64,000 bases of DNA from Candidatus Staskawiczbacteria bacterium RIFOXYB1_FULL_37_44 (GTDB taxonomy: Bacteria > Patescibacteriota > Minisyncoccia > Minisyncoccales > Staskawiczbacteraceae), in NCBI GenBank assembly GCA_001822065.1, contig MHPJ01000001.1, forward strand, positions 6,870-70,869, given 5' to 3'. Every line of letters begins with the position of its first letter. The first letter of the stretch is position 1. Below the pieces are notes generated by a model. That model ran no database searches. It saw only the letters and a program-made list of their open reading frames with translations, and had not been told where the DNA came from. Below, piece by piece: positions 12,233 through 39,780 of the stretch. The translations under genes and the position numbers were made by a program.

Positions 12233-12252
12233 ATTATAATAACTATTTTAAG

Positions 12253-12792
12253 ATGGCTGCTTTAAAAGAAAAAATATTATTATTGCTTTTTGGCGGGCTT
12301 GCTTTTGGTTGCGCTTATACTCCGCAAAAACAGTGGAAAGTTATTAAAACTATATCTGTTGAATGGAAAAAGATAGATAAAAAAGAATTATTTGCAGAAA
12401 TTCACAGATTGTATAGGTCAAAATTGGTGAAAAGAATAACCAATTCAGACGGAACACTCACGTTTATTTTAACTGAAAAAGGTAAATTAAGGGCCCTTAC
12501 TTATAGTTTTGAACATATGAAAATAGAAAAGAAAGACTGGGACGGCAAATGGCGATTTATTGTTTTTGATGTTCCCGAAAAGTTTAGAACCGGACGAGAT
12601 GCGCTAAGATGGAAAATTAAAAAACTTGGATTCTATGAATTACAAAAAAGCGTTTTTATTTTTCCTTATAAATGCGAAGACGAGATAAATTTTATTATAG
12701 AATTTTTTGGAATAAGAAAATATGTCAGGTATGGAATAATAGATTTTATTGATAATAAGGCGCACTTAAAACAAATTTTTGGGCTAAAATGA
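12253..12792 (+). CDS. PaaX-like regulator (wHTH plus PaaX_C/Cas2-like fold), paralogue of 3036-3563
   Basis: 'DGKWRFIVFDVPEKFRTGRDALRWKIKKLGFYELQKSVFIFPY'. The ATG at 12253 is preferred over the tracked GTG at 12223, which lies inside the promoter-like motif. Confidence 0.6.
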   Translation: MAALKEKILLLLFGGLAFGCAYTPQKQWKVIKTISVEWKKIDKKELFAEIHRLYRSKLVKRITNSDGTLTFILTEKGKLRALTYSFEHMKIEKKDWDGKWRFIVFDVPEKFRTGRDALRWKIKKLGFYELQKSVFIFPYKCEDEINFIIEFFGIRKYVRYGIIDFIDNKAHLKQIFGLK

Positions 12793-20324: not shown

Positions 20325-21026
20325 ATGCGCAAAGAACCATATACAGTCGGCGATTTTATTCATGTGTATAATCGCGGAAATCGGAAACAACCAATAGTTC
20401 TTGATACAAAAGATCAGTGGCGCTTTCTTTTGATGCTCCGTTATTTTAACGATGAGCATTCTTCTTCAAATCCTCTGCGTTACCTGTTGAAGTCTGACTT
20501 CAACAGGGCTTTCGAGTGGCCGCCCGATTGGCCGGCGCACAAACCATTGGTCAATATTGTTTGTTTTACGCTTATGCCAAATCATTACCATTTAATTTTA
20601 GAAGAAATTTCAGAGGGGGGCATAACAAAATTTATGAGAAAATTTGGAACAGGAATGACAAATTATTTTAATACAAAACATAAAGAATCGGGCAGATTAT
20701 TTCAAGGGGCGTTTAAAGCAAAAAGAATTGATGCGGAGAATTATCTTTCTTATCTTACAGTATACATTCAAGTTAAAAATGTTTTTGAATTATATGCAGG
20801 CGGGATTAAAAAAGCAGTAAATAATTTTGACGATGCTTTTCGGTGGGCAGTTGAATATCCATATTCCAGTCTTGCCGATTATGCCGATAATCGAAATTCT
20901 CCAATTGTTGAAAAAAGTGTTGCAGGCGGCATGTTTTCTTCTGTTGGAGAGTATCGAAATTTTTCTAAACAGTGTATGCTGAATATGAATTTGCAGGATA
21001 AACTTGGCGATCTCGCATTTGAATAA
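20325..21026 (+). CDS. REP-associated tyrosine transposase (RAYT) / IS200-like Y1 HUH transposase
   Basis: 'HVYNRGNRKQPI', HUH motif 'MPNHYHLILEE', catalytic-Tyr region 'YLTVYIQVKN', 'EYPYSSLADY'. Confidence 0.8.
   Translation: MRKEPYTVGDFIHVYNRGNRKQPIVLDTKDQWRFLLMLRYFNDEHSSSNPLRYLLKSDFNRAFEWPPDWPAHKPLVNIVCFTLMPNHYHLILEEISEGGITKFMRKFGTGMTNYFNTKHKESGRLFQGAFKAKRIDAENYLSYLTVYIQVKNVFELYAGGIKKAVNNFDDAFRWAVEYPYSSLADYADNRNSPIVEKSVAGGMFSSVGEYRNFSKQCMLNMNLQDKLGDLAFE
20483..20507. repeat. REP-like palindrome, internal copy in opposite orientation
   Basis: cctgttgaagtc-t-gacttcaacagg (12-bp arms). Encodes 'LLKSDFNR' within the RAYT ORF. Confidence 0.9.
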
Positions 21027-25230: not shown

Positions 25231-25485
25231 ATGAATATTCCAGCTGAAATTCAACCTAAAAAAATATATACCCCCAAAGAAGCTAGGGATTTTTTAAAAG
25301 TTTCGGAAAGCACGATGAAAAGAATGCTAAAAAGAGGCATCATTAAAGCATATAAGGTTTCAGGCCAATATAGAATTTGGGGAAGCGAAATATTGGTTCT
25401 TGTATCTCCAAAACTGGAATCTGGAGTATATAAAGTTTACAAAAAAATAAGAGAAAATACGCATAAGGCTATTGAAAAATGGTAA
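25231..25485 (+). CDS. Small HTH DNA-binding protein (excisionase/MerR-like HTH_17)
   Basis: 'YTPKEARDFLKVSESTMKRMLKRGIIKAYKVSGQYRI'. Confidence 0.6.
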   Translation: MNIPAEIQPKKIYTPKEARDFLKVSESTMKRMLKRGIIKAYKVSGQYRIWGSEILVLVSPKLESGVYKVYKKIRENTHKAIEKW

Positions 25486-25510
25486 TTTTAGCATTATTAA
25501 ATTAAGGAAA

Positions 25511-26323
25511 ATGATTGGAAAACAAAAAATAGGCATATTGGGGGTTGGCATGGTAGGGGGCTCTCTTAAAAGATATTTTGAAAAACAGGAAAATGTGGAG
25601 CTTTTTTTGTATGATAAAAAAGGATTGGGTTCTTTGGGGGATTTGAATAAGGCCGATTTTGTTTATGTGTGTCTCCCAACTCCTTATGTTTCTGAAAAAG
25701 GATGCGATACTTCTATTATAGAAGAAGGAGTAAAAAATATTTCAGGAAACAAAATTATTATAATTAAATCAACTGTTATTCCGGGCACAACAGATAAAAT
25801 GCAGGAAAAATTTCCTCAACACAAATTTTTATTTAACCCTGAATTTTTAACCGAAGCCACTGCCGACCAAGATATGTTTTTACCCGATAGGCAAATAATG
25901 GGTTACACAAAAGAAAGTTATAGTATTTCTAAAAATGTTTTACAGCAGCTTCCTTTAGCTCCGTACGAGGATATAGTGCCGGCTATAGTGGCTGAATTTA
26001 TAAAGTATGCCAATAATACATGGTTTGCCGTAAAAGTTGCAATGAACAATGAGCTGTATGACCTGGCAAAAAAAACGGGCATTTCTGAAGAAGAATGGGA
26101 AAAACTGGTATCTGGGATAGCATCTGACAAGAGAGTGGGGAGGACTCATTTAACGATAGTACATAAGGAAAAAAGAGGATATTGGGGCAAATGCTTGCCA
26201 AAAGATATAAAAGCTTTGCTGAAATTTGCTGAAGATTCCGGCGTTGAGATGCCTGTTCGTGAGGCTGCAAATAAATATAACGACAAATTATTAAACTCGC
26301 AGGGAGTTAAGGAATTTATATAA
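25511..26323 (+). CDS. Short UDP-glucose/GDP-mannose dehydrogenase-family protein lacking the C-terminal nucleotide-sugar-binding domain
   Basis: '[12 protein letters not shown]', '[13 protein letters not shown]', catalytic-Cys context '[10 protein letters not shown]'. About 270 aa. ATG at 25511 preferred over the TTG at 25472. Confidence 0.6.
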
Positions 26324-29824: not shown

Positions 29825-30631
29825 ATGGCTTTATCAAATAAAACAAAAATTGGAATTGTAGGCATGGGATTTTTAGGGGGGGCGGTTAAATACTGGTTTG
29901 ACAAGCAAGAATTTCCAGCATTTTTTTACGATAAATATAAAGGGGTGGGATCTGTGGAAGAAATCAATAATGCCGAGATAATATTTATTTGCCTGCCCAC
30001 TCCTTTTTTAGAAGAAGAGAACAAAGGGTTTGATGATTCAGCCATATGGGAAACTTTAGATTTGATTGATGGGCAGAAAATTATAGTCATAAGATCTACG
30101 GTTTTGCCCGGCTCAACCGAAAAATACCAGAAAAACTTTCCGCATCATAAGTTTCTAATGAACCCGGAATTTTTAGTTGCAAAAACAGCGATACAAGATT
30201 TTATAAATCCAAACAGGCAGATAATTGGATGTACTGAGGTCAGTAAAGACGTGGCCGAAAATGTACTGAAAATTTTACCAAAAGCGCCGTTTGAAAAAAT
30301 AGTTTCGGCCACAGAAGCTGAAATGATTAAATATTTTGGAAATGTTTTTTTGGCAAACAGGTTAATTTTTGCAAACCAAATGTACGATATTTGCCAAAAA
30401 ATTGGAGCAGACTACGAAACCGTTAAGGAGTGCGCCGGATCCGACTCAAGGATAGGGCTAAGCCACTTTGATGTTCTTTGCGATGGTTATAGGGGTTATT
30501 CAGGAGCTTGCTTGCCAAAGGATACAAAGGCATTAATTCAGTTTGCCCAAAAAGTAGGAGTTGATGCAAAACTGCTAAAAACTATCGACGAGATAAATAA
30601 TAAGTTGATCGACGGAAATAATCATGATTAA
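29825..30631 (+). CDS. Short UDP-glucose/GDP-mannose dehydrogenase-family protein, paralogue of 25511-26323
   Basis: 'KIGIVGMGFLGGAV', 'NPEFLVAKTAIQD', 'GYSGACLPKD'. 268 aa. Confidence 0.6.
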   Translation: MALSNKTKIGIVGMGFLGGAVKYWFDKQEFPAFFYDKYKGVGSVEEINNAEIIFICLPTPFLEEENKGFDDSAIWETLDLIDGQKIIVIRSTVLPGSTEKYQKNFPHHKFLMNPEFLVAKTAIQDFINPNRQIIGCTEVSKDVAENVLKILPKAPFEKIVSATEAEMIKYFGNVFLANRLIFANQMYDICQKIGADYETVKECAGSDSRIGLSHFDVLCDGYRGYSGACLPKDTKALIQFAQKVGVDAKLLKTIDEINNKLIDGNNHD

Positions 30632-31589
30632 ATCTAAAGAAAAAATTCTGGTTACGGGAGGCGCTGGTTTCATAGGGTCTCATTTATGCGAAAGGCTGTT
30701 GAGGGAAGGTTTTTCTGTTATTTGTCTTGATAATTTTAGTGATTTTTATGACCCTAAATTAAAGGAAGACAATGTAAAAGAAATGATTGGCAATAAAAAA
30801 CTCTCATTAGTGAGGGGAGACATTCTAGATAAAAATTTATTAAAAAAAATATTTTCTGCAAACAAAATTTTTAAAATTGTTCATTTGGCCGCCATACCCG
30901 GTGTGCGCCAATCCATAAAAACCCCTTTTGATTATATAGATGTCGATATTAAGGGCACAGTCAATCTTCTTGAAATGGCAAAAGAGTATAAAGTTTTTCA
31001 ATTTATATTTGGATCTTCTTCGACTGTTTACGGACAAGACTCTAAGTCGCCGTTTTCCGAAGACGAAACAAATCTCATTCCGGTTTCGCCATACGGAGTT
31101 AGTAAATTATCAGCAGAAATATTCTGCCGCACCTATAGCAAACTTTATAAAATTCCCACTACTATTCTTAGATTTTTTTGTGTTTTTGGACCAAGGGAAA
31201 GGCCCGAGCTGGTTTTACCAAAATTTGTGGCGCTGGCTGAAGCCGGAAAGGCGATTTCCCAGTATGGATCAGGAGAATCTGCCAGAGATTATACCTACAT
31301 TGACGATATTGTAGAAGGTATAATGAAAGCCGTTAAGAAAGAATTTAGTTTTGAAATATTCAATTTAGGCAATTCAAGTCCTGTAAAGTTAAAAGACTTG
31401 ATAAAAACTATTGGTGAAAAATTAAAAGTTGAATTAAAAATAGAAAATATGCCAGACCAACTTGGAGATGTGCCAATTACTTATGCAAATATTTCAAAAA
31501 GCAAAAAAATACTTGGGTGGCATCCAAAAGTTTCTTTGGGAGCTGGTGTGGATAAATTTTTAATTTGGCATAAAAATAAAAATCGTTAA
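30624..31589 (+). CDS. NAD-dependent nucleotide-sugar epimerase (UDP-glucuronate 4-epimerase-like extended SDR)
   Basis: 'ILVTGGAGFIGSHLCERLL', 'SPYGVSKLSAE'. Confidence 0.7.
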   Translation: MIKSKEKILVTGGAGFIGSHLCERLLREGFSVICLDNFSDFYDPKLKEDNVKEMIGNKKLSLVRGDILDKNLLKKIFSANKIFKIVHLAAIPGVRQSIKTPFDYIDVDIKGTVNLLEMAKEYKVFQFIFGSSSTVYGQDSKSPFSEDETNLIPVSPYGVSKLSAEIFCRTYSKLYKIPTTILRFFCVFGPRERPELVLPKFVALAEAGKAISQYGSGESARDYTYIDDIVEGIMKAVKKEFSFEIFNLGNSSPVKLKDLIKTIGEKLKVELKIENMPDQLGDVPITYANISKSKKILGWHPKVSLGAGVDKFLIWHKNKNR

Positions 31590-31598
31590 AAATAAATT

Positions 31599-32492
31599 AT
31601 GATAATAACATGCCTTATCGGAGATCCCGTCGAGCAAAGCGTGTCTCCGTATATGTACAATTATTTTGGATTTAGAGCGGGCTTGCCCTATTATTCCCAC
31701 ATAAAAATAAGGGTGCATGCGGAAAATGAAGGCAATTTGAAAAAAGCAATCCAAGCAGCTAAGTTTTTGGGTTTCGCGGGCATTAATATAACGATTCCTT
31801 ATAAAACAAAAGTTTTAAAATATTTAGATAAAATTGATAAAAAAGCTGCAGCAGCAGGAATAGTTAACGCTATAGTTAATAGAAATGGAAAGCTTGTCGG
31901 ATACAACACAGACAGCGCCGGCGCTTTGTTGGCCATAGAAAAAAGATTGAGGAAAATTAAAGCGAGCGATAAAATTTTAATTTTTGGCGCGGGGGGCGCC
32001 TCTAGGGCTGTCACGGTTGCAATTTCTACAAGGACTAAAAACATAACCCTAATAAATAGAAAAGAAGATTTTCAGCTTGCTCAGTCTCTAAGAGACGATG
32101 TCAAAAAATTAGGAATTTCAATAAATATATTACCGCTTAATGAAGAAAATATTATTCGGGAATTTGTCAGAGCAGATTTTGTTATAAATGCCACGCGCTT
32201 GGGAATGGTGCCGAATATAAAAGAAAGTATAATATCTAAATCGCAGTTTAGCAAAATCAGCAAATTAACTCCGCTAAAGAAAAAGTTATTTTTTGATGTA
32301 GTTTTTAATCCCTATACAACAGAGTTTTTAAAGATGGCAAAAAAATATAATGCGAAAACTTGCCAAGGTTTATATATGACAATTTATCAAGGGGCGGCTT
32401 CCTTTGAGCTTTGGACCGGTAAAAAGGTAAGCAAAAAAGATGTAGATTTTATTCATAAAGTTATTAAACAAAAAATGGGAATTAAAAGTTAA
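31599..32492 (+). CDS. Shikimate/quinate dehydrogenase (AroE)-family oxidoreductase in a glycan context
   Basis: 'SVSPYMYN', 'INITIPYK', 'VGYNTDSAG', 'FGAGGASRAV', 'IYQGAASFELWTG'. Confidence 0.7.
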   Translation: MIITCLIGDPVEQSVSPYMYNYFGFRAGLPYYSHIKIRVHAENEGNLKKAIQAAKFLGFAGINITIPYKTKVLKYLDKIDKKAAAAGIVNAIVNRNGKLVGYNTDSAGALLAIEKRLRKIKASDKILIFGAGGASRAVTVAISTRTKNITLINRKEDFQLAQSLRDDVKKLGISINILPLNEENIIREFVRADFVINATRLGMVPNIKESIISKSQFSKISKLTPLKKKLFFDVVFNPYTTEFLKMAKKYNAKTCQGLYMTIYQGAASFELWTGKKVSKKDVDFIHKVIKQKMGIKS

Positions 32493-32502
32493 ACTAACAA
32501 GC

Positions 32503-33501
32503 ATGAAAAACAAAAAAATAATTTATGGGATTGTCGGGTGCGGGCGAGTTTTTCCCGTACACGTTGACGCAATTAAAAAAGATAAAAATAGCCGGTTAAA
32601 AGCGGTTTTTGATATTGACAGAAGGGCGGCCGAAAAAGCCGCAAAAAAATATAGTTGTCAGGCAAAAGGAAGTCTGGCAGAGTTGTTGTCGGATCCTGAA
32701 ATAGACGTAATTAATATTTGCACGCCCCATCATACTCATAAAAATATTATCTTAGAGGTGATTAAAGCTGGTAAATATTGCATTTGCGAAAAGCCCTTGT
32801 GCTTGAACAAAAAGGAGGGAGAAGAAATTATTAAAAGCAAGTATTATAAAAACAATGTTTTTGTAATGTTTCAGAACAGATTTAACCCAGCGATGCAATT
32901 TTTGTCTAAAGCTATAAAAGAGGACGCCTTGGGTAAAATAATACTTTGCTCGGTATCTCTCCGCTGGTGGAGAGACGATAGTTATTTTATGGATGAATGG
33001 CACGGGAGCAAGAAGAAGGTGGGAGGAATGCTATATAACCAGGCATCTCACGTGCTTGATATTATGAGAAAGATTTGCGGAGAGCCAAAAAGCGTAAAAA
33101 AAGTGGAGGCTTCTTTGCGAAAAAATATAAATATTGACGATATTTATGAGGGCAATATTGTTTTTAATAACGGTACTATTGGAAACGTTGAAGTGACCAC
33201 TTACGCAGGGTATAAGGATTGGGAAGTGTCTATGTTTGTCATTGGAGAAAAGGGTACCATAAAGATAGGCGGACTTTCAATAAATAATGTAGAATATGTA
33301 GATGTTAAAAACAAAAACTTTGCGAAAATGGCGCCTAAATATTGTGAGAAAATAAAAACAGGTTATGGCAATAGCCACCCGAGAGTTATATCCGCTTTCA
33401 GCGAATGGTTGTTAGGGGGAAAAAGACATCCTGATTTGGTTTCAGCAAAAGAAGGAGTGTTGTCAACAATGTTTTTTGAAAAATTATATAACGGCAAATA
33501 A
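32503..33501 (+). CDS. Gfo/Idh/MocA-family NAD(P) oxidoreductase
   Basis: 'YGIVGCGRVFPVHVDAI', 'CEKPLCLN'. Confidence 0.75.
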   Translation: MKNKKIIYGIVGCGRVFPVHVDAIKKDKNSRLKAVFDIDRRAAEKAAKKYSCQAKGSLAELLSDPEIDVINICTPHHTHKNIILEVIKAGKYCICEKPLCLNKKEGEEIIKSKYYKNNVFVMFQNRFNPAMQFLSKAIKEDALGKIILCSVSLRWWRDDSYFMDEWHGSKKKVGGMLYNQASHVLDIMRKICGEPKSVKKVEASLRKNINIDDIYEGNIVFNNGTIGNVEVTTYAGYKDWEVSMFVIGEKGTIKIGGLSINNVEYVDVKNKNFAKMAPKYCEKIKTGYGNSHPRVISAFSEWLLGGKRHPDLVSAKEGVLSTMFFEKLYNGK

Positions 33502-33519
33502 GTAAAAAATTTAAAAACT

Positions 33520-34443
33520 ATGAAAGATATTTCTCAAAATGATATTCAAAATAATGTTCCTCTCGTAACAAGGAAAGATTTCCAGAGGGAAATTTTAGTT
33601 GGCAATAGCCAGATAGGCGGAGGAATAATTACTATTATAGCTGGCCCTTGCACAGTAGAAAGCAAAACTCAAATTTTTAAAATTGCAAAAGCTGTAAAAG
33701 AGGCCGGAGCTACAATGTTAAGAGGAGGGGTTTTCAAGCCTTTAACTTTTCCTTACGGAGATCCTTTGGGAAGGGCTGATGCCGACTCAAACGGTCCAAG
33801 CAGAGATAGAAAGGAAATTTTAAGTAAAAAAGAACTTTTTGAAAATGCAGAAAAAAGGCTATCTTATTTAAAGGAAGCGGGCGAAAAATACGGATTGCCT
33901 GTGATTTCGGAAATTCTTTATGCTGATTCTGTGAAAATGATGGAAAAATATGTTGATATGTTTCAGGTTGGATATCGCCACATGTTTAACATGGATTTAA
34001 TAGAGGCGCTTTCCAAAACAGAAAAACCAATACTATTAAAAAGACATTATGGCGAAAGTTTAAGATCGCTTTTGGGAGTTGCAGAACATTACGAAGCCCG
34101 TGGAAAACATAATTTTGTTTTTTGCGAAAGAGGCGTTTCGGTACCCCATACCCATAATGTTGAATCTAGAGCGATAATTGATATACAAGCAATCATTGCT
34201 TTAAAGGAATATGCCCCAAGCGTGCCGGTAATAGTTGATCCTAGCCATGCTACTTTTAAAAGAAGTTATGTTGCTGGAGTTTCGAGGGCGGCAATTGCCG
34301 CTGGAGCCGACGGGCTTTTGATTGAGGTTCATCCAGATCCAGAAAATGCATGGGTTGACCCTTTGATGTCATTGGATTTTAATTCTTTTGCAAAACTTGT
34401 TAAAGAAATTGAAGAAATCGCGAAGATTTTAGAAAAAAAATAA
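33520..34443 (+). CDS. Divergent DAHP synthase (type I-beta)/KDO8P-synthase-family PEP aldolase
   Basis: '[10 protein letters not shown]', '[13 protein letters not shown]', 'LLKRH', '[10 protein letters not shown]', '[16 protein letters not shown]'. Canonical KPRT and GIRTFE are replaced, and there is an insertion of about 25 aa. Confidence 0.7.
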
Positions 34444-34459
34444 ACCTGACGACCAACAC

Positions 34460-35824
34460 ATGAAAACAGTTTCTATCATTATTAGGACAAAGAACGAAGA
34501 AAGATGGATAAACCATTGCTTGAGTTCTATTTTTAGTCAGAATTTTAAAGATTTTGAAGTAATTATTGTTGACAACGGAAGCCAAGACAGAACTATTGAA
34601 AAGGCAAGGCAATACCCAGTTAAGATTGTTAATTATAGCGAAAAAGAATTTAAGCCCGGAAAGGCGATAAACGAAGGCATTAGAGCTTCAAACAGCAAAT
34701 ATATAGTTGTTCTTTCCGGCCATTGCATACCCACTAATGATATGTGGCTGGAAAATTTTATCAAGGAAATTGAATCTCGGCCAGATGTAGCTGGGGTTTA
34801 CGGGAGACAAGAACCCCTTCCTTTCAGTAGCGACATAGATAAAAGAGATTTGCTTTTTACTTTTGGTTTAGAAAAAAAAGTGCAGGCTAAAGACACTTTT
34901 TTTGATAATGCAAACAGCATTGTCAAAAGAGAAATTTGGGAAAAGTTTCCTTTCGACGAACAAGTACTGCATATCGAAAACCTTATTTGGGGTAAAGAAG
35001 TTATAAAAAACGGATACAAGATAATTTATTCTCCCGATGCTAGTGTTTATCACCACCATGGCATTCATCATGGAGGAGATTTAAAGAGGGCAAGAGAAGT
35101 GGTAGAAATATTAGAAGGAATAGATTTATCAAAAGAAAAAAGAGCAGTAGATATTACCGAATTAAAAGTTGCCGGAATAATTCCTGCCAAGGGTAAAGTA
35201 GAATTTTTGGGAGGAAGACCTTTGATTGAATACACAATTTTACGCGCCAAAGAATCTAAATACTTAAATTTGATAGTCGTTACAACAGATAACCCGGAAA
35301 TTGCCGATATTGCTAGAAATCTAGGAGTGCATTTTATATTTATTTATCCGAAAGAATTGGCCGAGGAACACGTAGAAATAAAAGAAGTATTAGGTTATGC
35401 TGTTTCTGAATTTGAGAAAATGAAAATTATCCCTGACGTTGTGGCCTATCTTAGCCCAACATATCCCTTTAGGCCCAAAGGGTTAATTGATGAAATAATT
35501 AAAGATTTAATTAATGGCGGATACGATAGCGTGCTGCCCGTGCTGCCCGAATACAGATCTTGCTTTATTAAAGAAGATGAAAAAGTTAAGAGATTGGATA
35601 GGGGTTTTATGCCTATGCAATTTAAAGAGCCGCTTTATACAGGCCTTTCGGGATTGGTTACTGTTTCTTATGTTGATGTTATTAAAAAAGAGCAAAATAG
35701 GCTTGGAGAGAGATTGGGAATGGTAGAAGTTGATAATATTCTTTACTATATTGATATTGGAAAATCTAAAGCAAAGGAGATGGCCGAGATTTTAATTAAA
35801 GATTGGTGGCCAAAAAATCAATAA
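34460..35824 (+). CDS. Fusion protein: N-terminal GT2 glycosyltransferase plus C-terminal cytidylyltransferase-like (CTP_transf_3) domain
   Basis: 'VSIIIRTKNEERWI', 'IIVDNGSQDRT' at the N-terminus. 'VAGIIPAKGKVEFLGGRPLIEYTI...VVTTDNPEIADIA' at the C-terminus. Confidence 0.65.
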   Translation: MKTVSIIIRTKNEERWINHCLSSIFSQNFKDFEVIIVDNGSQDRTIEKARQYPVKIVNYSEKEFKPGKAINEGIRASNSKYIVVLSGHCIPTNDMWLENFIKEIESRPDVAGVYGRQEPLPFSSDIDKRDLLFTFGLEKKVQAKDTFFDNANSIVKREIWEKFPFDEQVLHIENLIWGKEVIKNGYKIIYSPDASVYHHHGIHHGGDLKRAREVVEILEGIDLSKEKRAVDITELKVAGIIPAKGKVEFLGGRPLIEYTILRAKESKYLNLIVVTTDNPEIADIARNLGVHFIFIYPKELAEEHVEIKEVLGYAVSEFEKMKIIPDVVAYLSPTYPFRPKGLIDEIIKDLINGGYDSVLPVLPEYRSCFIKEDEKVKRLDRGFMPMQFKEPLYTGLSGLVTVSYVDVIKKEQNRLGERLGMVEVDNILYYIDIGKSKAKEMAEILIKDWWPKNQ

Positions 35825-35846
35825 TTTTTAATTCAAAGTAATAGAC

Positions 35847-36566
35847 ATGCCAGAAAAAAAACAAAATGTAGTTGCTGTGATTCCTGCGAGAGGTGGGTCA
35901 AAGGGCGTTCCGGGAAAAAATATTAAATTATTAGGAGGAAAACCCTTAATTTCTTATGTTCTTGAGGCTGCAAAAAAATGCCAGCTTATAGACCGTATAA
36001 TTGTTTCCACTGATGACGAACAAATAGCTGAAGTTGCTAAAAAATACGGAGCAGAAGTCCCCTTTATGAGGCCAGCAGAATTAGCAGAGGATGCAACGCC
36101 CACTGAACTCGTTTTAAAACACGCGGTAGAATGGCTTGAGCAAAATGAAAAATACAAAACAGACATTGTTGTTTTTTTTCAATTAACTGATCTTCCAAGA
36201 ACAAAAGGGCTCATCGAAAAGGTTGTTAGTAGAATTTTAGAAGACGATTCATTGGATTCTGTTTTTGTAGCTACTTGCACTCGAAAAAATTATTGGCGAA
36301 AAAAAGATGGCAAATGGCAGAGATTAGCCCAAGATATTATGCCATATGGACCAAGACAGAAAAAGGAACCGCTTTATAGGGAAGACACCGGATTGGCCTG
36401 CGCGACAAGGGCAAGATTTATAAAAGAAGGCAGAAGAGTAGGAGATAATGTTGATATTATTATTAATGACGCTGATTTTTCTATTGATATAAACGATCCA
36501 ATAGATTATTGGTTGGCCGAAAGATACTGGGAAAGAGGAATTGATCTCTCAAAATATGAACCATAA
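35847..36566 (+). CDS. Acylneuraminate/ulosonate cytidylyltransferase (NeuA/KdsB-like)
   Basis: 'VAVIPARGGSKGVPGKNIKLLGGKPLISY', 'IIVSTDDEQIAEVA'. Confidence 0.8.
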   Translation: MPEKKQNVVAVIPARGGSKGVPGKNIKLLGGKPLISYVLEAAKKCQLIDRIIVSTDDEQIAEVAKKYGAEVPFMRPAELAEDATPTELVLKHAVEWLEQNEKYKTDIVVFFQLTDLPRTKGLIEKVVSRILEDDSLDSVFVATCTRKNYWRKKDGKWQRLAQDIMPYGPRQKKEPLYREDTGLACATRARFIKEGRRVGDNVDIIINDADFSIDINDPIDYWLAERYWERGIDLSKYEP

Positions 36567-37002
36567 ATATATAAAAAATAATTGTGAGTCTTGCCAAAGA
36601 ATATTAAGTGGCGCAGGAAAAATTAAAGAATACAAATGTTGGTTTTTGGAGCACGTGGGCGAGCCTATTCCTGTAAATGGGTGGCTGGTTTTGCGCCTAA
36701 AAAGACACGGCGAAGGATTAGTAAGCATGAATAAAGAAGAATCCGAGGAGTTAGGCCAAATTTTGAACAGCCTGCCAAAAGCGCTTAAAGAAGTTACCAA
36801 CGCAACGCAAATATATTTGTGCTCTTTTAACGAATCAGTTCCTCATTTGCATTTTCATTTTATCCCGCGTAGAGCGGAAGAAAAAAGAAGAACCATAGAT
36901 TTTTTCATTCTTCAAAATGAAGTAAAATCCGGTAAAGTGTCTGCGATAGCGGCAAGCGAAACAGCTTCTTTAATCAGAAATATTAAAATAAGATTAAATT
37001 AA
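36556..37002 (+). CDS. HIT-family (histidine triad) nucleotide hydrolase/transferase
   Basis: 'VPHLHFHFIPR' triad. N-terminal 'CESC'. ATG at 36556 preferred over the TTG at 36541. Confidence 0.65.
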   Translation: MNHKYIKNNCESCQRILSGAGKIKEYKCWFLEHVGEPIPVNGWLVLRLKRHGEGLVSMNKEESEELGQILNSLPKALKEVTNATQIYLCSFNESVPHLHFHFIPRRAEEKRRTIDFFILQNEVKSGKVSAIAASETASLIRNIKIRLN

Positions 37003-37011
37003 TAAAACAAT

Positions 37012-37947
37012 ATGTTTGAACAAGAAACCATTGACCTGTACAAAAAATTAGTGAAAGAGGCAGCAGAAACAGACATAGGTTGGAGACACTCGCCTGTTGA
37101 AGATTGGAAAATAGACTATTTCGCAAAAAATTTTAATGAAAATAATCTTATTAATTTCAGAAGAACGCCATTAGTTGAAGGCGTGATAAGTTTCCCTGAC
37201 AGGCCGCTAAGAAAAGGCGTAAGGCTAACTCAACCATGGTTGTCTGGCCTACCCCTTTGGCAAAAAATAAGGGGAATAAGAGATATTTTGGTTGAACTAT
37301 ATCCTTTAAATTCTTATTTTAAAATTAATTTATCGGAAGTTGGTGATAGCCCAGTCGGGAATCCTTGTTATTATAGTTTTGGCAATATAAAAATTACAGA
37401 CCTTGCAATTAGAATGTGTTTTTATCGCAAGTATATTGAGAAAGAATTTAAGCATGCGAGTAATATACTTGAAATTGGCGGGGGTTTTGGTGGATTATGT
37501 CTAAAGCTTATGCAGTCTAAAATTTTAAATCCTCAAAAATATTTTTTTACGGATTTGCCGGAAAATCTCGCCCTGGCTTTTTATTATCTAAAAAATAATA
37601 ATTTTAATGTGAAGGTTTTTGAAAGGGGACAAGACATAGAAAGGGATTCAGGAAAAGTTGTCTACATTGTAGCGCCATGGAAACTCAAGGATTTAAATGT
37701 GCGGATGGATCTTTTTATCAATACAATGAGTTTTCAACATATGACCAGAGAGAATATTGTTTATTATTTGTCAGAAATTAATAGGTTGAATACTAAAAAT
37801 TTATTTTTAGTGAACAGGGACGGCAAAAGAGATGCGACGGATTTAAAAATCAGCGAATATCCTATTCCTGAAAAATATATTTTGTCCAAAGAAGAAAAAT
37901 ATCTGTTTTCAAACCACCTTATGAGGAAGTATAGTCTAATCAATTAA
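37012..37947 (+). CDS. Class I SAM-dependent methyltransferase (putative sugar O-methyltransferase)
   Basis: 'ILEIGGGFGGLCLKL' motif I. Confidence 0.55.
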   Translation: MFEQETIDLYKKLVKEAAETDIGWRHSPVEDWKIDYFAKNFNENNLINFRRTPLVEGVISFPDRPLRKGVRLTQPWLSGLPLWQKIRGIRDILVELYPLNSYFKINLSEVGDSPVGNPCYYSFGNIKITDLAIRMCFYRKYIEKEFKHASNILEIGGGFGGLCLKLMQSKILNPQKYFFTDLPENLALAFYYLKNNNFNVKVFERGQDIERDSGKVVYIVAPWKLKDLNVRMDLFINTMSFQHMTRENIVYYLSEINRLNTKNLFLVNRDGKRDATDLKISEYPIPEKYILSKEEKYLFSNHLMRKYSLIN

Positions 37948-37957
37948 ATTTTAAAAT

Positions 37958-38713
37958 ATGTTTGCAAAATCACCATCGTTTAGCGTAAGCGGAAAAAAAT
38001 TCAACGTTATAATTTTAGCATCTGGATTAGGAGCAAGACTAAAACCGGAAACTGATAATATTCCAAAGCCGTTGGTTGAGTTAGATGCGCAAGGAACAAA
38101 GGCTATTGATTATTTGATACAAAAATTCCAATATGTGGCGGGCAGATTAATTATAACAACTGCATATTGCGCCGACTTGCTTGAAGCTTATGTGAAAGGA
38201 AAATACTCTACTATGGATCCTCTTTTTGCCAGAGTCCCCGAGCTTATAAGCCCTGGCGCTTCTTTGATTGCCGGCTTAGATCAGGCGGCATCTGATTTGC
38301 CTACTATAATATTGTTTTGTGATTATATTGTTGAAGATTATATACCTGTTGATAATGATGCTTTGTGCGTGAGTAAAAAACCCGAAGGAGATTATGTTGT
38401 AGACTCTCATCCAAAAGGCATACCCACAATAGAAGAAGAAGTAATTACTGACTTGGCGCCCAACCAAGATCTTTTGAAAGATCGTTACGGCGGTTTTACC
38501 GGCATAGGAATATTCCACGACACATTGTTTTTAAAGTCGATTGCTTACACAAAAGCTTATGAGAAAAAAATGGATGTTGCTTATGACTTTGATATAATTA
38601 AAGAATACATAAAAAAAGTTAAAACAATGCCAATATACGTTTCAAAACTTTACGAATTTGGTACAATGGACGCCTTAAAGAAAATACGAGAAATTCACAA
38701 TTACTCTAGATAA
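37958..38713 (+). CDS. Sugar-phosphate nucleotidyltransferase-like protein
   Basis: 'VIILASGLGARLKPETDNIPKPLVEL'. Confidence 0.6.
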   Translation: MFAKSPSFSVSGKKFNVIILASGLGARLKPETDNIPKPLVELDAQGTKAIDYLIQKFQYVAGRLIITTAYCADLLEAYVKGKYSTMDPLFARVPELISPGASLIAGLDQAASDLPTIILFCDYIVEDYIPVDNDALCVSKKPEGDYVVDSHPKGIPTIEEEVITDLAPNQDLLKDRYGGFTGIGIFHDTLFLKSIAYTKAYEKKMDVAYDFDIIKEYIKKVKTMPIYVSKLYEFGTMDALKKIREIHNYSR

Positions 38714-38715
38714 AT

Positions 38716-39780
38716 ATGCAAATTACAGAAAGCATAATAAATAGAATGTCAGGAATTAAAGGAAGGCCGGTTTTGGTTGGAGTTTGTGGACGGGCTGGAA
38801 GCGGGAAATCTACACTTGCTAAAAAAATAAAAGAAGAATTGGAGGGCCAGGGAATAAAATCTGTTTCATATTCTGGCGATTGGAGATTTAAACTCGACTC
38901 GCAGGGCAGAAAAATGTTTCTTGATGAAAAATGGCTTTCGGGACTGGATGAATATTTACGAGCGGTAAACCAATTTAATTGGTGGGATTTTGAAAAAATA
39001 TACGCCGATTTAAATCTGTTAAAAGCCGGCCAGTCTGTTTTTTTAACAAATGCTTATAGCCGCGAGACTGGACGCAAGGATTTAAATAAAGAAATCAAGG
39101 GAACGGAAAACGGGGTTATATTTTATGAGAGTTGTATCTTGGGGGGGATTGATATTTTAGACAATCTAGACATTATTATTTTGCTTAATACGCCAGACAA
39201 TGTTTGCTTTTCTAGGCTGGCAGAGAAAGATTCAAAGAGGAGGACCTTTCCCGACCTCCTTGCCAGGCAATTGGTTACGCTTTACAGCGAAAATATTTTT
39301 TTAGAGTCGATTTTAGATAAATTCTCTAAAAAGTTATTAACTTGTAGTTCCGACGGATGGATCGGCGAATTTCCAATAATTTTTAAGGTCAGCCAAATTC
39401 CAGTGCCGATTAGCTATCAAAAAAACACCAATGGCACAAAGGGGACAATTTTTTGCGACCTAGACGGAACTTTGATAAAACACGTGCCCGTTCCTCCTGA
39501 AGTGGGAGAGGATATAGAAATAATCGACGGTTCTGTTGAAAAAGTAAAAGAATTTAAGGAAAAGGGGTATTATTTGGTTTTGACGACGTCGAGGCCATAC
39601 CATAAAATTTTTGGAATTTTAGGCAAGCTCAAATTTTTGGGAATAGAGTTTGACCAGGTAATTTGTGATTTGCCATTAGGCGCAAGATATTTAATAAATG
39701 ACAGCAAGAACGAAGAAATTAGAGCCATTTCGCATCCCTTAAAAAGAAACGAAGGGTTAAAAGGTGTAAAAATTGATTAA
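38716..39780 (+). CDS. Fusion: P-loop kinase (uridine kinase/PRK-like) plus HAD-superfamily phosphatase
   Basis: 'GVCGRAGSGKSTLAKK' Walker A. C-terminal 'IFCDLDGTLIKH' (HAD motif I) and 'VLTTSRP' (motif II). Confidence 0.65.
   Translation: MQITESIINRMSGIKGRPVLVGVCGRAGSGKSTLAKKIKEELEGQGIKSVSYSGDWRFKLDSQGRKMFLDEKWLSGLDEYLRAVNQFNWWDFEKIYADLNLLKAGQSVFLTNAYSRETGRKDLNKEIKGTENGVIFYESCILGGIDILDNLDIIILLNTPDNVCFSRLAEKDSKRRTFPDLLARQLVTLYSENIFLESILDKFSKKLLTCSSDGWIGEFPIIFKVSQIPVPISYQKNTNGTKGTIFCDLDGTLIKHVPVPPEVGEDIEIIDGSVEKVKEFKEKGYYLVLTTSRPYHKIFGILGKLKFLGIEFDQVICDLPLGARYLINDSKNEEIRAISHPLKRNEGLKGVKID

What the first reader, a model, noticed from the sequence alone, without database searches (positions are those of the whole stretch)
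31599..36566. Divergent DAHP/KDO8P-type synthase, AroE-like dehydrogenase, Gfo/Idh/MocA oxidoreductase and two cytidylyltransferases: a candidate pathway for an uncharacterised CMP-activated 3-deoxy-ulosonic acid
Five consecutive genes inside the glycan locus make a combination I do not know from Kdo, sialic, legionaminic or pseudaminic acid pathways.
- The synthase belongs to the DAHPS-I-beta/KDO8PS family ('AGPCTVES', 'DPSH', 'IEVH'), not the NeuB family. Its metal ligands look retained (Cys, His, Glu, and Asp in 'WVDP').
- The motifs that normally hold the acceptor phosphate and PEP are changed: KPRT->'KPLT', QIGARNMQN->'QVGYRHMFN', GIRTFE->'GVSVPH'. About 25 residues ('[29 protein letters not shown]') are inserted after 'KPLTFPY'.
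- The AroE-like protein keeps its core motifs (SxS, PYK, NTD, GAGGA, Q...W).
- No DHQ synthase, DHQ dehydratase or other shikimate-pathway gene is nearby.

A pyranose 3-deoxy-2-ulosonate is the ring-oxygen analogue of quinate/dehydroquinate, so an AroE/quinate-dehydrogenase fold acting on such a sugar acid is chemically plausible. One canonical NeuA/KdsB-like enzyme ('IPARGGSKGVPGKN') and a second cytidylyltransferase-like domain follow immediately. One speculative product class is a 7-carbon ulosonic or ulosaric acid such as a DAH or Dha-like sugar.
Basis: partly seen in the sequence, partly recalled or inferred. Interest (0 to 1): 0.8.

Follow-up and report, generated by a model that had tools for sequence, protein, structure and literature searches.

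The report
Uncharacterised CMP-ulosonic acid sugar pathway
Five adjacent genes in a cell-surface glycan locus belong to a gene cassette, found in many uncultured bacterial phyla and in marine plankton, that most likely makes and activates a Kdo- or sialic-acid-like acidic sugar nobody has yet described, using a distinct branch of the enzyme family that normally starts aromatic amino acid synthesis.

Summary
The five genes are real and sit at the stated coordinates. The synthase (33520-34443) has a DAHP-synthase-I-beta fold. All four metal ligands and all five PEP ligands are kept. The arginine that holds the acceptor's phosphate is lost (KPRT to KPLT).

It is not an odd one-off. It belongs to a discrete family defined by KP[L/C/A]TFP, KRH[Y/F/P]G, a 3-residue insertion (xxPHTH), TFxR and VDPLQ. 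The family separates from ordinary DAHP and Kdo8P synthases in 84-88 of 100 bootstraps.

Gene neighbours are consistent. In clade 1, 24 of 26 informative loci carry a NeuA-like cytidylyltransferase and 24 of 26 a conserved GT2-like domain. Directly upstream lies one of two accessory pairs: AroE-like plus Gfo/Idh/MocA, or IolO-like epimerase plus IolB-like isomerase. AroE-like and IolB-like genes never share a locus.

The window holds no other shikimate gene. Eight literature searches found no description of the family.

- The PEP site is intact.
- The 26-residue insertion and GYRHMFN mark only one clade.
- The "second cytidylyltransferase" is a GT-A domain fused to a degenerate NeuA-fold domain.

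Best reading: a third lineage of PEP-dependent, CMP-activated ulosonic acid biosynthesis. The identity of the sugar is unknown.

The parts
33520..34443 (+). PEP-dependent 3-deoxy-ulosonate synthase of a distinct 'KPLT-type' branch of the DAHPS-I-beta/KDO8PS family (clade 1, which carries a 26-residue insertion in the beta2-alpha2 loop)
   Evidence: PF00793 155.7 bits; below the NCBIfam DAHPS cutoffs. Metal and PEP ligands are kept; the E4P-phosphate Arg is replaced by Leu75. AF2 model has pLDDT 88.7; its best PDB matches are DAHPS I-beta enzymes with TM 0.88-0.90 and 36-39% identity. The family forms a clan in 84-88 of 100 bootstraps.
35847..36566 (+). NeuA-like CTP:ulosonate cytidylyltransferase, the inferred CMP-activation step
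   Evidence: PF02348 95.5 bits; PseF model 134 bits (cutoff 205.7). Best PDB hits are NeuA at 99 bits versus KdsB at about 42. The canonical IPARGGSKGVPGKN and IDINDPIDYWLAE motifs are visible in the sequence. A CT gene lies within 7 kb of the synthase in 24 of 26 clade-1 and 13 of 17 clade-2 loci.
34460..35824 (+). Fusion of a conserved GT-A (GT2-like) domain lacking DXD with a degenerate NeuA-fold domain; candidate transferase for the CMP-sugar, or a further biosynthetic enzyme
   Evidence: PF00535 92.4 bits plus PF02348 38.4 bits. AF2 model has pLDDT 90.7. The N-terminal domain matches GT-A enzymes; the C-terminal domain matches CMP-NulO synthetases with TM 0.80-0.87. The GT2 domain is 41-67% identical across phyla (45-67% in 47 of 48 comparisons), with S86-x-H88-C89 in 48 or 49 of 49 sequences in place of DXD and an invariant H198-x-H200-G201. 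Present in 24 of 26 clade-1 loci.
31599..32492 (+). AroE-family dehydrogenase, probably NADP(H)-dependent; accessory enzyme inferred to act on a carboxylated six-membered-ring sugar acid
   Evidence: TIGR00507 214.9 bits (cutoff 200.2). Best PDB hit is 1nvt. The Lys/Asp dyad, Asn, Thr, Gln and the Arg aligned with the NRT motif are kept in all 39 cassette-linked homologues (Gln is gapped in 2 of 39). Adjacent to the synthase in 12 of 26 clade-1 and 12 of 17 clade-2 loci.
32503..33501 (+). Gfo/Idh/MocA oxidoreductase (IolG-like); second accessory redox enzyme
   Evidence: PF01408, PF22725 and PF02894. Best NCBIfam hit is IolG at 120 bits, then levoglucosan and UDP-GlcNAc 3-dehydrogenases, all far below their cutoffs. 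It accompanies AroE-like in every clade-1 locus that has one and is present in 16 of 17 clade-2 loci.
29825..31589 (+). Truncated UGDH-family protein (29825-30631) and SDR epimerase/dehydratase (30624-31589); possible upstream steps, conserved in synteny only in CPR-type loci
   Evidence: PF03721 and PF00984 without the C-terminal UDP-binding domain. SDR: PF16363 and PF01370. The order Wzx, UGDH-like, SDR, AroE-like, Gfo, synthase recurs in L005/L015 and L017; L014, L068 and L074 show the SDR-to-synthase part of it.
36541..37947 (+). HIT-like protein (36541-37002) and NanM-like sugar O-methyltransferase (37012-37947); optional tailoring or associated genes
   Evidence: PF01230 22.9 bits. TIGR04371 98.2 bits, cutoff 44. 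The HIT-like gene is conserved in the same position in the Parcubacteria locus (recovered twice, as L005 and L015). A NanM-like gene occurs in 5 of 26 clade-1 loci.

Best explanation
The block is one form of a widespread, undescribed cassette that makes and activates a 3-deoxy-2-ulosonic acid, a Kdo- or sialic-acid-like acidic sugar, for a surface glycan.

**Step 1 (inferred from retained residues).** The KPLT-type synthase condenses PEP with an aldehyde acceptor, using the same metal and PEP chemistry as DAHP and Kdo8P synthases. The acceptor probably has no terminal phosphate. The phosphate-clamping Arg of KPRT is replaced by Leu (Cys or Ala in relatives), the following Ser by Phe, and no phosphatase is part of the conserved core.

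**Step 2 (inferred from two alternative, mutually exclusive gene pairs).** Two accessory enzymes adjust stereochemistry or oxidation state. They act either on the acceptor before condensation or on the pyranose ulosonate after it.
- In this window they are a Gfo/Idh/MocA dehydrogenase and an AroE-like reductase. The ulosonate pyranose is the ring-oxygen analogue of quinate, so oxidation or reduction at C4 or C5 is the natural reaction.
- In other loci they are replaced by an IolO-like keto-acid epimerase and an IolB-like uronate aldose-ketose isomerase.
- Both pairs come from families that handle carboxylated six-carbon polyols. A uronate-type acceptor, and hence a dicarboxylic 'ulosaric' product, is therefore a live possibility.

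**Step 3 (inferred from homology).** The NeuA-like enzyme makes the CMP-sugar.

**Step 4 (speculative).** The GT-A domain, which lacks the diphosphate-binding DXD, is fused to a non-catalytic NeuA-fold domain. It uses the CMP-sugar, most simply as its transferase.

**Optional.** O-methylation by the NanM-like enzyme.
For: **Synthase residues.** Compared with P. furiosus DAHPS numbering and the ligand roles listed in PMC6362186:
- metal ligands C31, H201, E227 and D238 are kept;
- PEP ligands R55, K60, R115, K136 and R166 are kept;
- E4P-phosphate ligand R62 becomes Leu, while T63 is kept.

**Fold.** DAHPS I-beta fold, TM 0.88-0.90.

**Discrete family.**
- In the genome scan, identity to the window protein falls from 64% (weakest clade-1 relative) straight to 43% or less (ordinary DAHPS).
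- Among 1.84 billion representatives, only about 10 clusters at 50% identity carry the KP[LCA]TFP + KRHxG + HTH signature; nearly all of the other listed hits carry KPR[TS] or related variants.
- The signature family forms a clan in 84-88 of 100 NJ bootstraps.

**Conserved linkage** in dereplicated loci with at least 3 kb of flank on both sides:

| | n | CT | GT2 | AroE | Gfo | AroE+Gfo | IolO+IolB |
|---|---|---|---|---|---|---|---|
| Clade 1 | 26 | 24 | 24 | 12 | 14 | 12 | 11 (+2 that also have Gfo) |
| Clade 2 | 17 | 13 | 11 | 12 | 16 | 11 | 0 |

AroE-like and IolB-like genes never share a locus.

**Taxonomic spread.** Margulisiibacteriota, Elusimicrobia, Omnitrophota, Desulfobacterales, Dehalococcoidaceae, Saccharibacteria, Parcubacteria, Sulfurovum, Myxococcia, Victivallales, Planctomycetales, and TARA Oceans and other marine metagenome contigs.

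**Alternative accessory pair.** IolO model 299.1 bits (cutoff 300); IolB model 192.8 bits (cutoff 205). IolO is a C-4 epimerase of 5-keto-L-gluconate (PMC12632266).

**Other components.**
- The AroE-like catalytic and substrate residues are conserved in all 39 cassette-linked copies.
- The CT is NeuA-like with intact signature motifs.
- S-x-H-C replaces DXD in the GT-A domain in 48 or 49 of 49 sequences.
- Other acid-sugar enzyme families recur nearby: MR_MLE, DHDPS family, Aldedh and UGDH.
- The window contains no shikimate genes.
Against: - No biochemical data exist for any family member, and the product is unidentified.
- Loss of one Arg does not prove that the acceptor lacks a phosphate. 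The family gains conserved His176, His210, His212 and Arg248, which could form a relocated anion site for a phosphate or a carboxylate.
- I could not inspect model coordinates, so the positions of these residues relative to the active site are inferred from alignment only.
- The window's AroE-like protein passes the NCBIfam aroE cutoff, so by sequence alone it could still reduce dehydroshikimate.
- The order of steps is undetermined, including whether the accessory enzymes act before or after condensation.
- The role of the GT-A domain is a guess. Its unusually high conservation fits a small-molecule enzyme better than a polymer-specific transferase.
- Neighbourhoods were sampled from at most 80 loci per scan, and genes were called crudely.
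Confidence: 0.68

Rival explanations
1. The synthase still uses a phosphorylated acceptor such as A5P, E4P or another sugar phosphate. The phosphate is held by a relocated site built from the new conserved His and Arg residues. The cassette would then make Kdo, or a close Kdo or DAH analogue, by the classical route, and an unlinked phosphatase would remove the phosphate before CMP activation.
For: - Thr of KPxT and Asp280 are kept.
- The family gains invariant H176, H210, H212 and R248, which could bind an anion.
- A marine subclade has the metal Cys replaced by Asn, the hallmark of metal-independent Kdo8P synthases (my own knowledge).
- A PRK-HAD fusion lies 2 kb downstream in the window.
Against: - No phosphatase or sugar kinase appeared among the recurrent neighbour gene families examined.
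- The Arg is replaced by hydrophobic Leu, Cys or Ala, and the neighbouring Ser by Phe, throughout the family.
- The CT is NeuA-like, not KdsB-like: 99 versus about 42 bits.
- Many host lineages are diderms (Desulfobacterales, Elusimicrobia, Omnitrophota), expected from general knowledge to have ordinary KdsA/KdsB. CPR hosts are not known to make LPS.
Confidence: 0.15
2. The DAHP-synthase-like and AroE-like genes are ordinary shikimate-pathway genes, or remnants of them, that happen to sit in a glycan locus.
For: The AroE-like protein passes the TIGR00507 cutoff at 214.9 against 200.2. The synthase is annotated as 3-deoxy-7-phosphoheptulonate synthase by JGI and NCBI pipelines.
Against: - The synthase scores below every DAHPS equivalog cutoff.
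- It lacks the E4P-phosphate Arg.
- It forms a separate clan.
- Across phyla it is flanked by CT and GT2 genes rather than aro genes.
- In half of clade-1 loci, AroE-like is replaced by IolO/IolB-like genes.
- The 64-kb window has no other aro genes.
- True I-beta DAHPS genes recovered in the same scan look different, with KPRT and about 35-43% identity. At least the Tetragenococcus ones also have an AroE-like neighbour.
Confidence: 0.03
3. The cassette makes a CMP-linked or free acidic small molecule that is not a glycan building block, for example a carbocyclic or keto-acid metabolite. The GT-A and NeuA-fold fusion would be a biosynthetic enzyme rather than a glycosyltransferase.
For: - The GT-A domain is conserved at 41-67% identity across phyla, with invariant His and Cys residues. 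That is unusual for a transferase whose acceptors should vary.
- The accessory enzymes resemble cyclitol and acid-sugar catabolic enzymes: IolG, IolO, IolB and AroE.
Against: - The cassette is almost always embedded in polysaccharide or glycoprotein loci with Wzx, Wzy, GT4, NeuB or Maf genes.
- No DHQ-synthase or EEVS-type cyclase is linked.
- Cytidylyltransferases of the NeuA/KdsB family are known only to activate ulosonic acids for glycosyl transfer (my own knowledge).
Confidence: 0.08

Closest known systems
Type I-beta DAHP synthase (AroA I-beta; e.g. P. furiosus 1zco, A. pernix 1vs1, T. maritima 1rzm)
   Same: TIM-barrel fold with TM 0.88-0.90 and 36-39% identity. The Cys/His/Glu/Asp metal site and all five PEP ligands are kept. 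Like the archaeal unregulated forms, it has no regulatory domain.
   Different: - KPRT becomes KPLT, losing the E4P-phosphate Arg, and the following Ser becomes Phe.
- KRG becomes KRHY.
- A 3-residue insertion (PHTH) replaces the RTFE segment.
- TG becomes TFxR, and SDGxQS becomes VDPLQ.
- A 26-residue insertion in the beta2-alpha2 loop (clade 1 only).
- Scores below the NCBIfam cutoffs.
- Linked to CT and GT genes rather than aro genes.
Kdo pathway (KdsD, KdsA, KdsC, KdsB)
   Same: Same logic: a PEP-dependent aldol-type synthase of the same superfamily, then CMP activation by a CTP_transf_3 enzyme, with an isomerase supplying the acceptor. The family also contains both Cys (metal) and Asn variants, as Kdo8P synthases do (my own knowledge).
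   Different: - Only about 21-27% identical to KdsA.
- No KANRS motif.
- No KdsC-type phosphatase in the core.
- The CT is NeuA-like, not KdsB-like.
- Different accessory enzymes: AroE/Gfo or IolO/IolB instead of the SIS-domain KdsD.
Nonulosonic acid pathways (NeuB/NeuA, PseI/PseF, LegI/LegF)
   Same: PEP plus an unphosphorylated aldose gives a ulosonic acid, which a NeuA-family enzyme converts to the CMP-sugar. The cassette sits in surface-glycan and flagellin-glycosylation-type loci, often beside a genuine NeuB/CT pair.
   Different: The synthase is from the DAHPS/KDO8PS family, not the NeuB family: NeuB Pfam scores only 29.9 bits against 155.7 for PF00793. None of the recurrent neighbour gene families examined was a UDP-sugar 2-epimerase/hydrolase, PseB/C/H/G or LegB/C/H-type gene.
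Inositol and quinate catabolic enzymes (IolG, IolO, IolB; AroE/YdiB; 5-ketofructose reductase 7cok)
   Same: The accessory enzymes belong to these families, with near-cutoff scores for IolO (299 against 300) and IolB (193 against 205) in the alternative cassette. The AroE catalytic residues are intact.
   Different: The setting is biosynthetic, beside a synthase and a CMP-transferase. No IolC, IolD, IolE or IolJ gene, and no other aro gene, was seen among the linked genes examined, so the substrates must differ.

Membership tests
DAHP synthase type I-beta (functional DAHPS, EC 2.5.1.54) | Fold and Pfam DAHP_synth_1 membership | tested here: met
   PF00793 155.7 bits. Foldseek TM 0.88-0.90 to 1vs1, 1zco and 1rzm.
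DAHP synthase type I-beta (functional DAHPS, EC 2.5.1.54) | Metal ligands Cys/His/Glu/Asp and PEP ligands (Arg, Lys, Arg, Lys, Arg) | tested here: met
   C44, H243, E269 and D280; R68, K73, R153, K174 and R204. Aligned to 1zco with ligand roles from PMC6362186.
DAHP synthase type I-beta (functional DAHPS, EC 2.5.1.54) | KPRT/S motif: Arg and Thr that bind the phosphate of erythrose 4-phosphate | tested here: not met
   The motif is KPLT. The Arg is Leu75 here and Leu, Cys or Ala across the family; the Thr is kept.
DAHP synthase type I-beta (functional DAHPS, EC 2.5.1.54) | Score above curated NCBIfam cutoffs | tested here: not met
   NF006421 274.4 against 335; TIGR01361 242.7 against 267.75; NF009239 202.8 against 279.
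DAHP synthase type I-beta (functional DAHPS, EC 2.5.1.54) | Genomic association with the shikimate pathway | tested here: not met
   Pfam scans of all 61 window ORFs of 120 aa or more found no aroB, aroD/Q, aroK, aroA or aroC. Neighbours across phyla are CT and GT2 genes.
Kdo8P synthase (KdsA) | Score above the KdsA equivalog cutoffs; KANRS-type A5P phosphate motif | tested here: not met
   NF003543 96.9 against 242; TIGR01362 93.7 against 314. About 21% identity to KDO8PS structures. The motif is KPLTF.
NeuB-family nonulosonate synthase | NeuB Pfam and TIGR03569/TIGR03586 membership | tested here: not met
   PF03102 gives only 29.9 bits over residues 97-173. TIGR03569 22.1 against 399.65.
Shikimate dehydrogenase AroE (for 31599-32492) | Catalytic Lys/Asp dyad, substrate-binding Ser/Asn/Thr/Gln, the Arg of the NRT motif, and the TIGR00507 cutoff | tested here: met
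   214.9 against 200.2. All residues are kept except the Tyr of IYNP, which is Phe.
Shikimate dehydrogenase AroE (for 31599-32492) | Activity on 3-dehydroshikimate, in a shikimate-pathway context | not testable with these tools
   The context argues against it: a conserved position beside the KPLT-type synthase, and replacement by IolO/IolB-like genes in other loci. Activity needs an assay.
CMP-ulosonate synthetase, NeuA/KdsB family (for 35847-36566) | CTP_transf_3 fold with the N-terminal PARxxSxxxxxKN motif and the C-terminal DxD...AE motif | tested here: met
   PF02348 95.5 bits. IPARGGSKGVPGKN and IDINDPIDYWLAE are in the sequence. NeuA structures score 99 bits.
CMP-ulosonate synthetase, NeuA/KdsB family (for 35847-36566) | Membership of a named equivalog (PseF, KdsB, NeuA) | tested here: not met
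   PseF 134.1 against 205.7. KdsB models score 45-63, against cutoffs of 155-281.
CMP-ulosonate synthetase (for the C-terminal domain of 34460-35824) | Fold | tested here: met
   Foldseek TM 0.80-0.87 to V. cholerae and N. meningitidis NeuA.
CMP-ulosonate synthetase (for the C-terminal domain of 34460-35824) | Catalytic signature motifs | tested here: not met
   IIPAKGKVEFLGG replaces PARGGSKxxPxKN, and IDIGKS replaces DIDxxxD. The Lys/Arg position is not conserved in the 40-sequence alignment.
Inverting GT2 glycosyltransferase (for the N-terminal domain of 34460-35824) | GT-A fold and Pfam Glycos_transf_2 | tested here: met
   PF00535 92.4 bits. Foldseek matches K4CP, SpsA, PcManGT and WrtF.
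Inverting GT2 glycosyltransferase (for the N-terminal domain of 34460-35824) | DXD motif binding metal and NDP-diphosphate | tested here: not met
   The position aligned to DCD of K4CP is S86-G-H88. S, H and C89 are present in 49, 48 and 49 of 49 family members.

The most novel reading that the evidence does not exclude
The KPLT-type synthases define a third, previously unrecognised route to CMP-activated ulosonic acids, abundant in uncultured phyla and marine plankton. The acceptor would be an unphosphorylated acid sugar (a uronate-type aldehyde), so the product would be a new dicarboxylic 3-deoxy-ulosaric acid. The DXD-less GT-A domain fused to a NeuA-fold domain would be the first GT2-fold transferase for a CMP-ulosonate. 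The AroE-like enzymes would be the first shikimate-dehydrogenase-family members working on ulosonate or uronate pyranoses in glycan biosynthesis.
Probability: 0.25. Interest if true: 0.88.

Novelty: new variant of a known kind. Interest (0 to 1): 0.72.

Why it matters
Kdo and the nonulosonic acids (sialic, legionaminic, pseudaminic) are the only well-understood CMP-activated acidic sugars, to my knowledge. They matter for envelope integrity, host mimicry, flagellar assembly and phage or immune recognition.

A third synthase lineage that recurs with a dedicated CMP-transferase in at least eleven bacterial lineages and in marine plankton implies an undescribed acidic sugar on the surfaces of CPR bacteria, Omnitrophota, Margulisiibacteriota, sulfate reducers and ocean bacteria.

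It would also show how a primary-metabolic enzyme, DAHP synthase, was re-tooled by changing the acceptor-phosphate clamp. It gives a simple sequence signature (KPxTFP, KRHxG, PHTH) for correcting the many database entries now labelled '3-deoxy-7-phosphoheptulonate synthase'. That label can falsely suggest aromatic amino acid biosynthesis in reduced genomes.

The cassette is small, five genes, so it can be tested directly by heterologous expression.

Tried and rejected
- **Ordinary shikimate genes.** Rejected on motif, score, phylogeny and context grounds.
- **Insertion and GYRHMFN as the key to specificity.** Rejected. The sister clade lacks both yet has the same partners.
- **Degraded PEP site.** Rejected. 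All listed PEP ligands are kept, and the Arg lost in GIRTFE is not the PEP Arg, which lies in CERG.
- **Two true cytidylyltransferases.** Rejected for the fusion protein's C-terminal domain, which has the fold but not the motifs.
- **Literature.** Eight full-text searches found no description of this family or cassette. Terms combined DAHP synthase, shikimate dehydrogenase, cytidylyltransferase, ulosonic, heptulosonic, KduI, IolO, Dha, nonulosonic and Patescibacteria.
- **A cultured carrier with a known glycan.** The genome scan returned only MAGs for the family. Cluster look-ups gave no organism names.
- **Single-linkage clustering of neighbours.** It merged AroE-like with Gfo and CT with GT2 fusions. 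I replaced it with domain-wise labelling.
- **First NJ run.** It produced undefined distances for the most divergent pairs. The rerun with a cap gave the same topology.
- **Chain length of the sugar.** I could not deduce it. CT similarity to NeuA rather than KdsB lies mostly in the CTP-binding half and is not decisive.

Full report
**1. What is in the sequence**

The five ORFs exist as described, all on the + strand with short intergenic gaps. Pfam and NCBIfam assign them as follows.

| Coordinates | Length | Assignment | Key scores |
|---|---|---|---|
| 31599-32492 | 297 aa | AroE family | TIGR00507 214.9 bits, cutoff 200.2 |
| 32503-33501 | 332 aa | Gfo/Idh/MocA | best named model IolG, 120 bits, cutoff 355 |
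| 33520-34443 | 307 aa | DAHP_synth_1 | PF00793 155.7 bits; below every DAHPS and KdsA equivalog cutoff |
| 34460-35824 | 454 aa | Glycos_transf_2 + CTP_transf_3 | 92.4 and 38.4 bits |
| 35847-36566 | 239 aa | CTP_transf_3 | 95.5 bits |

The block lies inside a glycan locus of more than 40 kb. The locus contains Wzy-like, Wzx, GMD/GFS, GT2, GT4, radical SAM, DegT, Bac_transf and methyltransferase genes. Pfam scans of all 61 window ORFs of 120 aa or more found no other shikimate-pathway gene.

**2. The synthase**

I compared it with P. furiosus DAHPS 1zco by HMMER and with other enzymes by MAFFT. Ligand roles come from PMC6362186.

- *Retained:* the four metal ligands (Cys44, His243, Glu269, Asp280) and the five PEP ligands (Arg68, Lys73, Arg153, Lys174, Arg204).
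- *Lost:* the Arg of KPRT that clamps the phosphate of erythrose 4-phosphate. It is Leu75 here. The Thr is kept.

The inference that the PEP-holding motifs are compromised was wrong. The PEP Arg lies in CERG, which is intact, not in GIRTFE.

An AlphaFold model built on 36 homologues is confident (pLDDT 88.7, pTM 0.89). The 26-residue insertion is modelled as an extended beta2-alpha2 loop leading into a longer helix. The PHTH region is the least confident part. Foldseek places the model with archaeal and Thermotoga I-beta DAHP synthases (TM 0.88-0.90, 36-39% identity), well ahead of Kdo8P synthases at about 21% identity.

**3. It is a family, not an oddity**

- The first protein search returned 7,999 hits at E of 1e-10 or better. 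The top 120 are all 71-84% identical (one is 100%) and, with four exceptions, 304-312 aa long. They are annotated at most as "3-deoxy-7-phosphoheptulonate synthase".
- In one-genome-per-species data, close relatives occur only in MAGs: Dehalococcoidaceae, Elusimicrobia, Desulfobacterales, Omnitrophota, Saccharibacteria, Parcubacteria, Sulfurovum, Myxococcia, Desulfocapsaceae, Victivallales and Planctomycetales. Identity then drops from 64% to 43% or less, where ordinary DAHPS genes begin. At least the Tetragenococcus ones sit next to an AroE-like gene.
- That scan revealed a sister clade of about 285 aa, 43-49% identical to the window protein. It shares KPLTFPY, KRH[YF]G, the 3-residue PHTH insertion, DPSHATFxR and VDPLQ. 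It has no 26-residue insertion and keeps QIGARNMQN.
- A marine subclade (TARA and other marine metagenome contigs; assembly GCA_902571015.1) replaces the metal Cys with Asn, as metal-independent Kdo8P synthases do (that comparison is my own knowledge).
- Among 1.84 billion representatives clustered at 50% identity, only about ten clusters carry the signature. Nearly all of the other listed hits carry KPR[TS] or related variants.
- In an NJ tree the signature family forms a clan in 84-88 of 100 bootstraps. Clade 1 is recovered in 100 of 100.

**4. Conserved neighbourhood**

I labelled genes domain by domain in dereplicated loci with at least 3 kb of flank on both sides, and counted what lies within 7 kb of the synthase.

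| | Loci | CT | GT2-like | AroE-like | Gfo | AroE+Gfo | IolO+IolB-like |
|---|---|---|---|---|---|---|---|
| Clade 1 | 26 | 24 | 24 | 12 | 14 | 12 | 11 (+2 that also have Gfo) |
| Clade 2 | 17 | 13 | 11 | 12 | 16 | 11 | 0 |

In clade 1, the genes directly upstream of the synthase are either AroE-like plus Gfo, or an AP_endonuc_2 protein plus a KduI/IolB cupin. No locus has both AroE-like and IolB-like genes.

The alternative pair scores just under the equivalog cutoffs:
- IolO, 5-keto-L-gluconate epimerase: 299.1 against 300;
- IolB, 5-deoxyglucuronate isomerase: 192.8 against 205.

Other recurrent neighbours are DHDPS-family, enolase-superfamily (MR_MLE), aldehyde dehydrogenase and UGDH genes, radical SAM enzymes, DegT, methyltransferases, and a separate NeuB/CT pair. 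In Margulisiibacteriota the cassette lies between Maf-type genes.

The core is therefore synthase plus NeuA-like CT plus GT2-like domain. The accessory pair varies, but always comes from families that act on carboxylated six-carbon polyols or keto-acids.

**5. The other proteins**

- *Cytidylyltransferase (35847-36566).* It has the canonical PARGGSKxxPxKN and DxD...AE motifs. It is much closer to NeuA structures (99 bits) than to KdsB (about 42 bits). It fails all named equivalog cutoffs.
- *AroE-like proteins.* All 39 linked to the family keep the Lys/Asp dyad, Asn, Thr, the second Ser and the Arg aligned with the NRT motif, which I take to mark NADP(H) use (my own knowledge). Gln is kept in 37 of 39 and gapped in the other two. 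The long forms (33 of 39, all outside the six CPR-type loci) change the first Ser to Ala and fall below the aroE cutoff at 154-167 bits. PDB 7cok, 5-ketofructose reductase, shows that this fold can act on sugars.
- *Fusion protein (34460-35824).* The model has pLDDT 90.7. The N-terminal domain is GT-A. The C-terminal domain has a complete CMP-nonulosonate synthetase fold, with TM 0.80-0.87 to NeuA. That C-terminal domain lacks the catalytic signature.
- *GT-A domain.* It is conserved at 41-67% identity across both synthase clades and across phyla (45-67% in 47 of 48 comparisons). S86-x-H88-C89 stands in the DXD position in 48 or 49 of 49 sequences. D38, S41, H198-x-H200-G201, R116/Q117 and most of the H149-N-A-N-S153 stretch are conserved in at least 90% of sequences. 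In some CPR and clade-2 loci the GT-A domain stands alone, next to the CT gene.

**6. Most likely mechanism**

*Shown:* family membership, retained and lost residues, and conserved linkage.

*Inferred:*
- PEP plus an aldehyde acceptor lacking a terminal phosphate gives a 3-deoxy-2-ulosonic acid.
- Two accessory enzymes set stereochemistry or oxidation state, either on the acceptor or on the pyranose ulosonate. The ulosonate pyranose is the ring-oxygen analogue of quinate, which suits an AroE-type active site.
- The NeuA-like enzyme forms the CMP-sugar.
- The DXD-less GT-A domain uses it. CMP donors carry a monophosphate and, to my knowledge, do not need a DXD-bound metal.

The two accessory pairs never share a locus. 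That suggests either analogous routes to one sugar or two stereochemical variants of it.

Those families are IolG, IolO, IolB, AroE, MR_MLE, DHDPS, Aldedh and UGDH. Nothing here fixes the chain length. As of the 2012 review PMC3355719, the activated form of Dha had not been identified.

**7. Rivals**

- *Relocated anion site.* The newly conserved residues His176, His210, His212 and Arg248 could still bind a phosphorylated acceptor, giving a classical Kdo-like route (about 0.15).
- *Plain shikimate genes* (about 0.03). The evidence in sections 2-4 contradicts this.
- *A non-glycan metabolite* (about 0.08).

**8. Novelty**

The logic of a PEP-dependent synthase followed by CMP activation is known from Kdo and the nonulosonic acids. 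What is new:
- a third synthase lineage, derived from I-beta DAHP synthase;
- its defining sequence signature;
- its fixed partnership with a NeuA-like CT and a DXD-less GT-A domain;
- the two alternative accessory pairs;
- its wide distribution in uncultured lineages and the ocean.

Eight full-text literature searches found no description. I rate it a new variant of a known kind, with interest 0.72.

**Limits**
- There is no biochemistry for any member.
- I had no access to model coordinates.
- Gene calling in the loci was crude.
- Each scan returned at most 80 loci.
- The library searched excludes most subscription-journal papers.

Noticed in passing
window 25472-26323 and 29825-30631: Two paralogous UDP-glucose/GDP-mannose dehydrogenase-family proteins (283 and 268 aa) have only the NAD-binding and central domains and no C-terminal UDP-binding domain. 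The second keeps its position (Wzx, UGDH-like, SDR, AroE-like, Gfo, synthase) in Parcubacteria and Saccharibacteria loci L005/L015 and L017. It may oxidise a substrate that is not nucleotide-linked.
   Followed up: partly
L108, L115, L123, L124, L131, L135-L138 (marine metagenome contigs; assembly GCA_902571015.1): A marine subclade of the sister clade has AGPNMVE in place of AGPCxVE: the metal-binding Cys is replaced by Asn, the switch that separates metal-independent from metal-dependent Kdo8P synthases (my own knowledge). It forms a group in 86 of 100 bootstraps.
   Followed up: partly
window 34460-35140 (GT-A domain) and its homologues: The GT2-like domain has S-x-H-C where DXD should be, in 48 or 49 of 49 sequences, plus an invariant H-x-H-G and further conserved His residues. 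It is 41-67% identical across phyla. That looks more like a His/Cys metal site and a conserved small-molecule substrate than a typical polymer-specific GT2.
   Followed up: partly
P0390 (homologue of window 34460-35824): The second-closest homologue of the GT-A/NeuA-fold fusion (73% identity) is annotated as coming from a Nanoarchaeota MAG. Other close hits are Patescibacteria. This suggests transfer between bacteria and archaea, or a mis-binned contig.
   Followed up: no
window 36541-37002: A HIT-like ORF with a TTG start overlaps the 3' end of the cytidylyltransferase gene by 26 nt (PF01230, 22.9 bits). It is conserved in the same position in the Parcubacteria locus recovered twice, as L005 and L015. 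Its role is unknown; a nucleotide-sugar or nucleotide hydrolase is possible.
   Followed up: no
window 60066-61758, with 59297-60064 and 61769-62866: A split transketolase-like pair (N-terminal TPP-binding domain, then pyrimidine-binding and C-terminal domains) sits beside a TylF-like methyltransferase and a DegT aminotransferase at the far end of the glycan locus. From my own knowledge, this arrangement recalls two-carbon branching of deoxysugars.
   Followed up: no
window 38716-39780: An unusual fusion of a PRK/uridine-kinase-like P-loop kinase with a HAD phosphatase-like domain follows an NTP-transferase-like gene at 37958-38713. It could belong to a separate sugar-phosphate activation route in the same locus.
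   Followed up: no
L001-L003, L066 (Margulisiibacteriota): Here the IolO/IolB-type cassette lies between two Maf/MptE-like genes and next to NeuB and a CT-HAD fusion. This hints that in some lineages the sugar decorates flagellin or another protein rather than a polysaccharide.
   Followed up: no
L004, L011, L012, L062, L069; L123, L136, L138: Proteins of about 375-400 aa with no Pfam match, only loosely related to one another, recur next to the cassette in non-CPR clade-1 loci and in marine clade-2 loci. They are absent from the window and are candidates for an unknown transferase or polymerase.
   Followed up: partly
window 3036-3563 and 12223-12792; 20325-21026: Two PaaX_M (Cas2-like central domain) proteins and an IS200-like Y1 transposase fragment lie upstream of the glycan locus. 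The window contains no tRNA genes.
   Followed up: no
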